DNA of 48,438 bases from an uncultured bacterium (GTDB taxonomy: Bacteria; Patescibacteriota; Minisyncoccia; Phycocordibacterales; PALSA-1337), in contig CAIPHR010000073.1 in NCBI GenBank assembly GCA_903864905.1, positions 1 through 48,438 of the forward strand, read 5' to 3'. Position 1 is the stretch's first letter. Each line of letters opens with the position of its first letter. The notes below the pieces were generated by a model. That model did not search any database. It was not told the DNA's origin and worked only from the letters and a program-made list of their open reading frames with translations. Positions 43,510 through 43,629 of the stretch are shown here, in pieces. A program made the translations under genes and the position numbers.

Positions 43510-43629
43510 ATGCCGAAAGCTCCTAAGGGAGTCAAGGTGTCAGTTCGTTCCTACAGGAATGGCCCCGATCCTCGATGCAACCGAAGTGGTGGTGCATGTA
43601 GCGGTGGTGGTTCCTGCGGGCGACGTTAA
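43510..43629 (+). CDS. Candidate TOMM/LAP precursor peptide (39 aa), absent from the ORF track
   Basis: Own translation: MPKAPKGVKVSVRSYRNGPDPRCNRSGGACSGGGSCGRR*. A basic leader is followed by a Cys/Ser/Gly-rich core. It starts 54 nt after the YcaO stop and is followed by two hairpins plus a T-run. Confidence 0.65.
   Translation: MPKAPKGVKVSVRSYRNGPDPRCNRSGGACSGGGSCGRR

What the first reader, a model, noticed from the sequence alone, without database searches (positions are those of the whole stretch)
43510..43629. Unannotated 39-aa precursor-like ORF: MPKAPKGVKVSVRSYRNGPDPRCNRSGGACSGGGSCGRR
This ORF falls below the ORF-track length cutoff. The C-terminal 17 residues hold 3 Cys, 3 Ser and 6 Gly, a microcin-B17/LAP-like core composition. 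The N-terminus is Lys/Arg-rich and leader-like with a GPDP break. The locally very GC-rich coding stretch contrasts with its surroundings. Two hairpins and a T7 run follow immediately, the layout expected for a highly expressed precursor with a downstream terminator or attenuator.
Basis: seen in the sequence. Interest (0 to 1): 0.8.

Follow-up and report, generated by a model that had tools for sequence, protein, structure and literature searches.

The report
Unannotated azole-peptide precursor gene
The small ORF is a real, conserved but unannotated precursor peptide of a three-gene azole-peptide (microcin-B17-like) cluster in an ultra-small Patescibacteria (CPR) bacterium; the cluster type was already known from genome mining, but no product has been characterised.

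Summary
The ORF exists as described. Its conserved start is 15 nt upstream (ATG 43495), giving 44 aa: MKTRKMPKAPKGVKVSVRSYRNGPDPRCNRSGGACSGGGSCGRR.

It lies 38 nt after a 738-aa enzyme. That enzyme combines an N-terminal peptide-recognition (RRE) domain, a SagB-type FMN dehydrogenase and a YcaO cyclodehydratase. A conserved terminator and a DUF2268 zinc-protease gene follow.

Evidence that it is a real gene:
- The same small ORF sits beside the orthologous enzyme in at least 11 loci whose enzymes are 88-49% identical to this one.
- dN/dS is 0.06-0.37.
- The core R-S-G-G-x-C-[S/P]-G-G-G-[S/T]-C-G is nearly invariant, while third codon positions vary.
- More distant enzymes (about 25-37% identity) carry different Cys-rich cores behind a shared beta-strand leader motif.
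- No RNA family matches the region.
- The exact peptide was never called as a gene in a 15-billion-protein collection.

Best reading: a linear azole-containing peptide (LAP) precursor. The fused enzyme converts Cys/Ser/Thr to thiazoles and oxazoles, and DUF2268 probably removes the leader.

LAP clusters with YcaO, nitroreductase and peptidase in CPR bacteria were reported by genome mining in 2020. This is therefore a new member of a known, uncharacterised kind. The notable twist is that no E1-like or ThiF-like partner protein is present. Chemistry, expression and bioactivity are untested.

The parts
41240..43456 (+). 738-aa tri-domain maturase. RRE-like winged-helix domain: about residues 10-98 (41267-41533). 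SagB-type FMN dehydrogenase: residues about 122-321, catalytic K257-Y258. YcaO cyclodehydratase: residues about 396-738, with a conserved C-terminal PSxPHFFA.
   Evidence: Pfam PF00881 and PF02624, and NCBIfam TIGR03605 above its cutoff. AF2 model pLDDT 87. The N-terminal domain model matches the RREs of TruD, LynD, PbtF, TigE, ThcOx, TbiB1 and McbB. K257-Y258 align with McbC K201-Y202. Invariant residues are listed.
43457..43494 (+). 38-nt intergenic spacer, almost invariant in five orthologues. It contains a Shine-Dalgarno-like GAAGGGAAG (43471-43479).
   Evidence: DNA alignment A3. The spacer is more conserved than synonymous sites of the flanking coding regions (pS 0.4-0.68). Its role as a ribosome-binding site is inferred.
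43495..43629 (+). Precursor peptide gene, 44 aa plus stop. Basic leader with the beta-strand motif V13-K-V-S-V-R-S-Y20. Conserved core R30-S-G-G-A-C35-S-G-G-G-S40-C41-G42 (43582-43620).
   Evidence: Invariant residues are M1, Y20, S31, G32, G33, C35, G37-39, C41 and G42. dN/dS is 0.06-0.37.
43630..43648 (+). First 3' hairpin (GCCGCA / UGCGGC), starting right after the stop codon.
   Evidence: Fold. Kept in 4 of 5 orthologues, with compensatory changes.
43655..43695 (+). Second, longer hairpin (43655-43690) running into a T7 tract (43689-43695): an intrinsic-terminator-like element.
   Evidence: -30 kcal/mol for both hairpins together, z = -5.2. Covariation (e.g. UA to CG at columns 34/59, GC to AU at columns 40/53). 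The simple terminator scan missed it because of its bulged long stem.
43711..43718 (+). Conserved TGTATAAT (extended -10-like), 6 nt before the DUF2268 start codon. Possible promoter of a leaderless mRNA.
   Evidence: Invariant GTATAA block in alignment A3. Function is inferred only.
43725..44384 (+). DUF2268 zinc metalloprotease (HELHH at 44004-44018). Candidate leader peptidase. Its conserved start is ATG 43725 (MSIN...), not ATG 43710.
   Evidence: PF10026, E = 2e-33. HExxH is kept in six orthologues. A DUF2268 gene lies next to the fusion or YcaO gene in 34 fetched loci, including ones with only 22-35% enzyme identity.

Best explanation
43495-43629 encodes a 44-aa precursor of a linear azole-containing peptide (LAP/TOMM-type RiPP). 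It belongs to a compact three-gene module: maturase, precursor, protease.

Proposed mechanism:
1. The basic leader offers a beta-strand (VKVSVRSY). This strand docks onto the N-terminal RRE domain of the 738-aa maturase.
2. The YcaO domain uses ATP to cyclodehydrate Cys35, Cys41 and probably Ser/Thr40. Ser31, Ser36 and Cys28 may also be modified. The products are thiazolines and oxazolines.
3. The fused SagB-type FMN dehydrogenase oxidises these rings to thiazoles and oxazoles. The invariant [S/T]40-C41 pair would give a fused oxazole-thiazole bis-heterocycle.
4. The DUF2268 zinc protease then removes the leader.

The precursor appears to be co-transcribed with the maturase, and transcription ends at the conserved hairpin/T-tract.

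Shown here: the ORF, its conservation and purifying selection, the enzyme domains and catalytic residues, the predicted RRE fold, the conserved gene linkage and the conserved terminator structure.

Inferred: translation, the actual modifications, the cleavage site, the role of the protease and the bioactivity.
For: - Conserved small ORF next to the orthologous enzyme in at least 11 loci, plus 13 database peptides.
- pN 0.06-0.21 against pS 0.40-0.68, giving dN/dS 0.06-0.37. The other five frames carry stops or are not conserved.
- Invariant core S31, G32, G33, C35, G37-39, C41, G42 with varying third codon positions.
- Enzymes at about 25-37% identity have different Cys-rich cores behind the same leader motif (hydrophobic-x-hydrophobic-x-hydrophobic ... 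Y/R).
- YcaO (PF02624, 150 bits) and SagB (TIGR03605, 97.8 bits against a 78.4 cutoff).
- K257-Y258 align with the catalytic K201-Y202 of McbC (role of those residues from PMC6395948).
- The N-terminal domain model (pLDDT 83) has as best PDB matches the RREs of TruD, LynD, PbtF (TM 0.63/0.74, rmsd 2.3 A), TigE, ThcOx and TbiB1.
- In McbBCD and LynD the leader adds a beta-strand to the RRE sheet (PMC6395948).
- DUF2268 with an intact HExxH is linked to the enzyme in 34 loci, while the other flanking genes differ.
- No Rfam or tRNA hit in the region.
- Genome mining had already flagged YcaO + nitroreductase + peptidase LAP clusters in CPR genomes (PMC7298704).
Against: - There are no expression, proteomic or mass-spectrometric data.
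- No E1-like or Ocin-ThiF-like partner was found. Most characterised azoline-forming YcaOs need one (PMC7136475). None appears in the window or in the conserved module.
- The enzyme scores below NCBIfam's trusted cutoff for TOMM_cyclo_SagD (148.6 against 219.25).
- The C-terminus is PSTPHFFA rather than the canonical PxPxP.
- There is no conserved transporter or immunity gene.
- The Shine-Dalgarno-like element lies 14-17 nt from the ATG, which is longer than optimal.
- The residue before Cys35 varies (A/E/Q/K/S), so the modification rules are unknown.
Confidence: 0.8

Rival explanations
1. It is a genuine RiPP precursor of this module, but the chemistry differs. The YcaO domain might install only azolines, thioamides or an amidine, or act as an ATP-dependent peptidase as MusD does. 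The Cys/Gly-rich product might serve as a metal chelator or signal rather than an azole antibiotic.
For: YcaO enzymes catalyse several reaction types (PMC7136475; PMC8442711). In streptamidine biosynthesis a dehydrogenase is essential even though the product shows no oxidation. MusD is among the structural matches. The canonical partner protein is absent, and the TIGR03604 score is below its cutoff. The spaced Cys pattern could bind metal.
Against: The dehydrogenase domain is covalently fused and keeps the catalytic Lys-Tyr of azole-forming McbC. No TfuA gene was found. The core is the classic Gly-flanked Cys/Ser/Thr type, and the [S/T]-C pair is invariant.
Confidence: 0.12
2. It is a conserved small basic Cys-containing protein, for example a zinc-binding or nucleic-acid-binding peptide. 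It happens to be co-transcribed with the enzyme but is not its substrate.
For: The peptide is highly basic and has spaced Cys residues. No direct evidence links it to modification.
Against: It is always adjacent to the fusion or YcaO gene despite otherwise unrelated flanks. Distant enzymes pair with different Cys-rich cores but the same leader motif, the co-variation expected of enzyme and substrate. No Pfam, NCBIfam or PDB family matches it.
Confidence: 0.05
3. It is not a gene. The GC-rich stretch is a chance ORF within a structured 3' UTR, attenuator or other non-coding RNA.
For: Small ORFs are abundant. Strong RNA hairpins lie immediately downstream. The ORF was never called as a gene in the public collection.
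Against: The substitution pattern is that of a coding sequence: dN/dS 0.06-0.37, with Gly and Cys codons changing at third positions. The amino-acid motif persists where the DNA has diverged. No Rfam match even at E<=1. The hairpins lie outside the ORF.
Confidence: 0.02

Closest known systems
CPR/Patescibacteria LAP gene clusters found by antiSMASH mining (Sharrar et al. 2020, mBio, PMC7298704)
   Same: Same host group. Same gene content: YcaO, nitroreductase-type dehydrogenase, peptidase and an adjacent putative Cys/Ser-rich precursor. That study reported 110 such clusters in 93 further CPR genomes, 89 of them with a nitroreductase gene next to YcaO. All are uncharacterised.
   Different: The published example has separate genes and an 84-aa precursor. 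Here the dehydrogenase and YcaO form one polypeptide with an N-terminal RRE. The precursor is 43-44 aa with the RSGGxC[S/P]GGG[S/T]CG core, and the peptidase is identified as DUF2268. I could not check whether this exact family was among those 110 clusters.
Microcin B17 system (McbA precursor; McbBCD synthetase; TldD/E leader peptidase)
   Same: Gly-rich core with Cys and Ser destined for thiazoles and oxazoles. YcaO plus an FMN dehydrogenase with the same catalytic Lys-Tyr. An RRE that binds a leader beta-strand. Leader removal by a zinc metalloprotease. From my own memory of McbA, the hexapeptide GGGSCG, which forms an oxazole-thiazole bis-heterocycle site, also occurs there.
   Different: No sequence homology of the precursor. 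No McbB-type E1-like subunit. The enzymes are fused instead of forming a B4C2D2 complex. No McbEFG export or immunity genes in the conserved module. The protease is DUF2268 and is clustered, whereas TldD/E is unlinked. The core is much shorter, at about 11-14 residues.
Cyanobactin heterocyclases LynD/TruD/PatD (RRE, E1-like domain and YcaO in one chain)
   Same: They are the best structural matches of the whole model (E = 8e-21) and of the N-terminal RRE. Like this enzyme, a single polypeptide carries both the leader-binding RRE and the YcaO domain.
   Different: The middle domain here is a SagB-type dehydrogenase instead of the E1-like domain. There is no PatA/PatG protease or macrocyclase, and the product is presumably linear.
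Bottromycin 'standalone' YcaOs
   Same: They form azoline or amidine rings without an E1-like or ThiF-like partner (PMC7136475).
   Different: Those enzymes lack a fused RRE and a fused dehydrogenase, and they act on a follower-peptide substrate.

Membership tests
LAP / TOMM (azol(in)e-containing RiPP) gene cluster | YcaO-domain cyclodehydratase encoded next to the precursor | tested here: met
   PF02624, E = 1.4e-43, 150 bits against a 25.7 cutoff, covering residues 396-698. Acidic YcaO motifs AEGFERY and YELIERDA are invariant in 33 homologues. Structural matches to LynD, TruD, MusD and McbD. The subfamily model TIGR03604 scores 148.6, below its 219.25 cutoff.
LAP / TOMM (azol(in)e-containing RiPP) gene cluster | SagB/McbC-type FMN dehydrogenase with the catalytic Lys-Tyr | tested here: met
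   TIGR03605, 97.8 bits against a 78.4 cutoff. K257-Y258 are invariant and align with McbC K201-Y202. The catalytic role of those residues is from PMC6395948.
LAP / TOMM (azol(in)e-containing RiPP) gene cluster | E1-like (C) or Ocin-ThiF-like (F) partner protein, separate or fused to YcaO (present 'in most cases', PMC7136475) | tested here: not met
   No such domain in the fusion protein. None in the 28 other window ORFs scanned with Pfam (27 of the 34 other ORFs of >=140 aa, plus one of 132 aa). Several of those ORFs have no Pfam hit, and the remaining seven were not scanned. Only the enzyme, the peptide and DUF2268 are shared between orthologous loci. A partner acting in trans is not excluded.
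LAP / TOMM (azol(in)e-containing RiPP) gene cluster | RiPP recognition element able to bind the leader | tested here: met
   The fold is predicted only. Topology is beta-beta-beta(-beta)-alpha-alpha-alpha at residues 10-85. The top Foldseek hits are RREs of TruD, LynD, PbtF, TigE, ThcOx, TbiB1 and McbB. Sub-threshold PqqD hits, E = 0.036-0.073. Binding was not tested. RREs fused to dehydrogenases have been suspected to be vestigial (PMC7470986).
LAP / TOMM (azol(in)e-containing RiPP) gene cluster | Short precursor with a leader plus a Cys/Ser/Thr-rich core, conserved with the enzymes | tested here: met
LAP / TOMM (azol(in)e-containing RiPP) gene cluster | Proline-rich (PxPxP-type) C-terminus of azoline-forming YcaOs | tested here: inconclusive
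   The C-terminus is Y-P-S-T-P-H-F-F-A, with P731, P734, H735 and F736 invariant. It contains prolines and is conserved, but it is not the canonical PxPxP. The feature is cited from PMC8442711.
LAP / TOMM (azol(in)e-containing RiPP) gene cluster | Azol(in)e heterocycles in the mature, non-macrocyclic product | not testable with these tools
   Requires mass spectrometry or NMR of the product.
Microcin B17 family proper | McbA-homologous precursor, McbB E1-like subunit, and McbEFG export/immunity genes | tested here: not met
   The peptide has no Pfam, NCBIfam or PDB sequence match. No McbB-like or pentapeptide-repeat gene was found in the window. The only ABC transporter is 6.5 kb away and is not conserved with the module.
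Thioamitide / TfuA-YcaO systems | TfuA partner next to YcaO | tested here: not met
   No TfuA domain in the window ORFs or in the neighbourhoods of orthologues.
Known structured RNA (Rfam) or tRNA at this site | Covariance-model match | tested here: not met
   No match at gathering thresholds over the whole window. No match at E<=1 over 43300-43800. No tRNA at the site.

The most novel reading that the evidence does not exclude
The module is a minimal, self-sufficient azole synthetase. One polypeptide (RRE, SagB dehydrogenase, YcaO) recognises the leader, cyclodehydrates and oxidises without any E1-like or ThiF-like partner. The RRE takes the position it has in cyanobactin heterocyclases, and the dehydrogenase replaces the E1-like domain. 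DUF2268 would be a previously unrecognised family of dedicated RiPP leader peptidases. The product would be a very short (about 11-14 residue), cationic, microcin-B17-like bis-azole peptide made by episymbiotic ultra-small bacteria. The architecture is widespread: more than 100 clusters at 50% identity show the full-length fusion.
Probability: 0.45. Interest if true: 0.6.

Novelty: new member of a known kind. Interest (0 to 1): 0.45.

Why it matters
CPR/Patescibacteria have tiny genomes and are thought to live on other microbes. Any conserved secondary-metabolite module they keep is a candidate tool for that interaction.

This work supplies the missing substrate gene for one widespread family of such modules. 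It also gives a leader motif and a conserved core motif. The system is therefore directly testable by expressing three small genes, about 3.1 kb in total.

If the fused enzyme works without a partner protein, it would be an unusually compact azole-installing catalyst for peptide engineering. DUF2268 would gain a function.

The case also shows that gene callers routinely miss these 43-44-aa precursors. This one is absent from a 15-billion-protein collection.

Tried and rejected
- **Structured RNA or tRNA instead of an ORF.** Rfam at gathering thresholds (whole window) and at E<=1 (43300-43800), and ARAGORN, found nothing at the site.
- **Known peptide family.** Pfam, NCBIfam and a PDB sequence search of the peptide or its profile gave nothing significant. 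It is therefore not a sequence homologue of McbA or any curated precursor family.
- **Simple terminator and promoter scan.** The scan did not report the downstream terminator, because its stem is long and bulged. RNA folding and covariation were used instead.
Rejected in favour of 43495, because only the latter is conserved.
- **Partner protein.** I looked for E1-like, ThiF-like and TfuA domains in 28 other ORFs across the window and in the neighbourhoods of orthologues. None was found. Several ORFs have no Pfam hit, seven ORFs of >=140 aa were not scanned, and a partner in trans cannot be excluded.
- **Sequence-only detection of the RRE.** Only sub-threshold PqqD and wHTH hits were obtained. 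The case rests on the predicted fold.
- **Literature.** No paper in the searchable library links DUF2268 to RiPPs or describes a dehydrogenase-YcaO fusion. The 2017 YcaO review (PMC5406272) is not held.
- **Source contig.** The exact-match look-up of the enzyme returned no DNA for the second contig.
- **Structure job.** It was repeated with 9 rows.
- **Methyltransferase at 46216-47097 and histidine kinases.** Considered as module members and rejected, because they are not conserved next to orthologous modules.

Full report
**1. The observation**

The sequence at 43510-43629 is an ATG...TAA ORF encoding MPKAPKGVKVSVRSYRNGPDPRCNRSGGACSGGGSCGRR. The same frame is open back to ATG 43495, giving 44 aa (MKTRK + the 39 aa).

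- Rarity: among 435 small ORFs (25-90 aa) in all six frames of the window, it is the only one with >=3 Cys and >=4 Gly in its last 17 residues.
- GC content: 0.61 over 43550-43649 and 0.63 over the core codons. The window average is 0.40 +/- 0.064 per 100 nt. Gly, Cys, Arg, Ala and Pro codons account for this.
- Downstream structure: two hairpins follow the stop codon (43630-43648 and 43655-43690), the second running into seven T's (43689-43695). RNA folding gives -30 kcal/mol, z = -5.2, with 0 of 200 shuffles as stable.

An ORF of this size is not significant by itself, since there are 93 ORFs >=30 aa in the last 10 kb. The question had to be settled by context and comparison.

**2. Context**

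The gene ending 38 nt upstream (41240-43456, 738 aa) carries a nitroreductase/SagB-type dehydrogenase domain and a YcaO domain. The hits are PF00881 and PF02624 (E = 1.4e-43) and TIGR03605 above its curated cutoff. TIGR03604 gives a clear match but falls below its cutoff.

A profile of 33 homologues matches solved structures of McbC, BmdC, ThcOx/CyaGox, MJ1094 YcaO, MusD, TruD and LynD. An AlphaFold2 model (pLDDT 87, pTM 0.85) matches LynD, TruD, MusD, McbD, McbC and BmdC by fold.

Lys257-Tyr258 are invariant in the family. They align with Lys201-Tyr202 of McbC, the catalytic pair of the azoline dehydrogenase (PMC6395948).

Residues 10-85 form three to four beta-strands followed by three helices. 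Modelled alone (pLDDT 83), this domain has RiPP recognition elements as its best PDB matches:
- TruD (E = 5e-4) and LynD;
- the isolated RRE of PbtF (TM 0.63/0.74, rmsd 2.3 A);
- TigE, ThcOx, TbiB1 and McbB.

Sequence-only detection is sub-threshold (PqqD, E = 0.036-0.073).

The enzyme is thus RRE, SagB dehydrogenase and YcaO in one chain.

Downstream of the terminator lies a DUF2268 zinc protease (PF10026, E = 2e-33; HELHH). Its conserved start is ATG 43725.

**3. Comparison with related loci**

The enzyme has 65 close-to-moderate homologues, all with the same two Pfam domains. Almost all the named ones are from Patescibacteria/CPR (Taylorbacteria, Saccharibacteria, Uhrbacteria and others). 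I fetched 160 loci from metagenomes and genomes, and eight more by exact look-up.

A tblastn search with the peptide, plus a scan for small ORFs, found the same ORF right next to the enzyme gene. It occurs in L083 (enzyme 84% identical), L161/L162 (82%), L081 (80%), L165 (74%), L163/L164 (62%), L004 (61%), L082 (59%), L166 (57%), and L167 and L084 (49%). A profile search added 13 database peptides, none with a functional name; the only labels are 'hypothetical protein'.

Conservation within the peptide:
- Invariant: M1, Y20, S31, G32, G33, C35, G37-G39, C41, G42.
- Nearly invariant: R30.
- Position 36 is S or P, position 40 is S or T, and position 34 varies.
- The first Cys (C28) is absent in several members.

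Codon-level comparison of the six closest sequences gives pS 0.40-0.86 against pN 0.06-0.40. Where dS is not saturated, dN/dS is 0.06-0.37. The other five frames are interrupted or unconserved.

The DNA alignment shows the following:
- ATG 43495 is conserved in all five close orthologues.
- The 38-nt spacer is nearly invariant and carries GAAGGGAAG.
- A TGTATAAT block lies just before the protease start.

Both hairpins are retained, with compensatory substitutions in 8 of 21 pairs.

Enzymes at about 25-37% identity are followed by different Cys-rich peptides. Examples are MKPMKKLQIKVTERKLTDELLKQSTSCGNCSQCGGGSCTSCKS and MQKPLITVLRRPYAEDKTTGRNSANGCNSSCGRCSG. These share an alternating hydrophobic strand motif (V/I/L/F-x-V/I-x-V/I/R-..-Y/R) about 10-20 residues before the core.

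A DUF2268 gene lies next to the enzyme in 34 fetched loci, including the very distant ones. All other neighbours differ. The unit of inheritance is therefore enzyme + peptide + protease.

In the window this unit is flanked by an 82%-identical direct repeat of the 3' part of a histidine-kinase gene.

An exhaustive profile search shows the full-length fused architecture in well over 100 clusters at 50% identity, and 1,197 proteins at E<=1e-30.

**4. Mechanism**

What is shown:
- a translated-type selection pattern on the ORF;
- strict linkage to a YcaO-dehydrogenase enzyme with intact catalytic residues and a predicted RRE;
- co-variation of the enzyme clade with the core sequence;
- a conserved terminator.

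What is inferred from established LAP biochemistry (PMC7136475; PMC6395948):
1. The leader strand VKVSVRSY adds to the RRE sheet.
2. YcaO cyclodehydrates Cys, Ser and Thr using ATP.
3. The fused dehydrogenase aromatises the rings.
4. DUF2268 removes the leader.

The invariant [S/T]40-C41 pair preceded by Gly predicts a fused oxazole-thiazole. The A-C-S-G site (S or P at position 36) predicts at least a thiazole. From my own memory of McbA, its GGGSCG site is identical to residues 37-42 here, but there is no detectable homology.

The cleavage site, export route and target are unknown. No transporter or immunity gene is conserved with the module.

**5. Rivals**

- Different YcaO chemistry or a non-antibiotic role remains possible (about 0.12). 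YcaO enzymes are versatile, and the usual partner protein is missing.
- A small protein unrelated to the enzyme is unlikely (0.05), given the strict linkage and the co-variation.
- A non-coding element or chance ORF is essentially excluded (0.02).

**6. Relation to what is known**

LAP clusters with YcaO, nitroreductase and peptidase genes plus a putative precursor were reported in CPR genomes by antiSMASH mining. That study found one in a soil Microgenomates MAG and 110 more in 93 CPR genomes (PMC7298704). Later surveys also list YcaO RiPP regions in CPR. None has been characterised.

RREs fused to dehydrogenases in LAP, cyanobactin and thiopeptide clusters have been noticed and suspected to be vestigial (PMC7470986). 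Here that RRE is the only one in the module, so it is probably functional. This is an inference.

I found no description of an RRE-dehydrogenase-YcaO single-chain synthetase, nor of DUF2268 as a RiPP protease, in the searchable literature. That library is incomplete.

The system is not a member of the microcin B17 family proper: there is no McbA homology, no McbB and no McbEFG. It meets most LAP criteria except the partner protein.

**7. Verdict**

It is a new, unannotated member of a kind of gene cluster already recognised bioinformatically in CPR bacteria. Interest is moderate. The open points are partner-independent azole synthesis, the DUF2268 leader peptidase, and the product and its role in episymbiotic bacteria. 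All are directly testable with three small genes.

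Noticed in passing
window 40349-41129 vs 44456-45254: An 82%-identical, 799-nt direct repeat. A truncated copy (40315-41139, minus strand, 274 aa) of the 3' half of the histidine-kinase gene 44431-46122 lies on the other side of the three-gene module. The module is therefore bracketed by a duplicated kinase segment, which may be a trace of insertion or recombination. The 168-aa plus-strand ORF at 40493-40999 is just the antisense of this fragment.
   Followed up: partly
window 43711-43727: TGTATAAT (extended -10-like) is conserved in five orthologues and ends 6 nt before the DUF2268 start codon ATG 43725. 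This suggests a leaderless transcript for the protease. The mechanical ORF start at 43710 lies inside this element and is not the conserved start.
   Followed up: partly
L082:7280-7435 and proteins P0070, P0075, P0077, P0078: A sub-family of precursors with a longer core (KSGSGCGGGSCSGGGSCGKCGK; P0075 has an extra C-terminal extension). In L082 the gene order is enzyme, DUF2268, precursor, rather than enzyme, precursor, DUF2268.
   Followed up: partly
L092:45-179 and L092:2553-2783: A distant locus (enzyme about 26% identical) has two candidate precursors flanking the enzyme. One has an extreme Cys/Asp-rich core (NCGCDCECDSDCQCDCGCGCNCDCAGDCGQD).
   Followed up: no
L093, L100, L086, L168 (Pseudomonadota, Betaproteobacteria, Gammaproteobacteria, the cyanobacterium Argonema): The same fused enzyme architecture occurs outside Patescibacteria. 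L093 and L100 have a Cys-containing small ORF downstream with the same leader strand motif. In the Argonema locus (L168) I found no obvious precursor within 500 nt downstream, and no DUF2268.
   Followed up: partly
protein P0039 (1194 aa): One homologue of the enzyme is annotated as fused to helicase domains (PF00270/PF00176/PF04851). This could be a real fusion or a gene-calling or assembly artefact.
   Followed up: no
window 37180-39761 and 13579-19979: Two restriction/defence-type blocks. The first is an N4/N6 DNA methylase plus an AlwI-family endonuclease. The second is a 702-aa DNA methylase, a NYN-domain protein, an 894-aa ResIII helicase and a DUF2726/DUF559 protein.
   Followed up: no
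window 2899-10344: A 2,481-aa ORF that was not examined.
   Followed up: no
window 22411-23582 and 30471-31242: Five tRNA genes (Met, Met, Asp, Thr, Thr). The two tRNA-Met genes are on opposite strands, about 770 nt apart.
   Followed up: no
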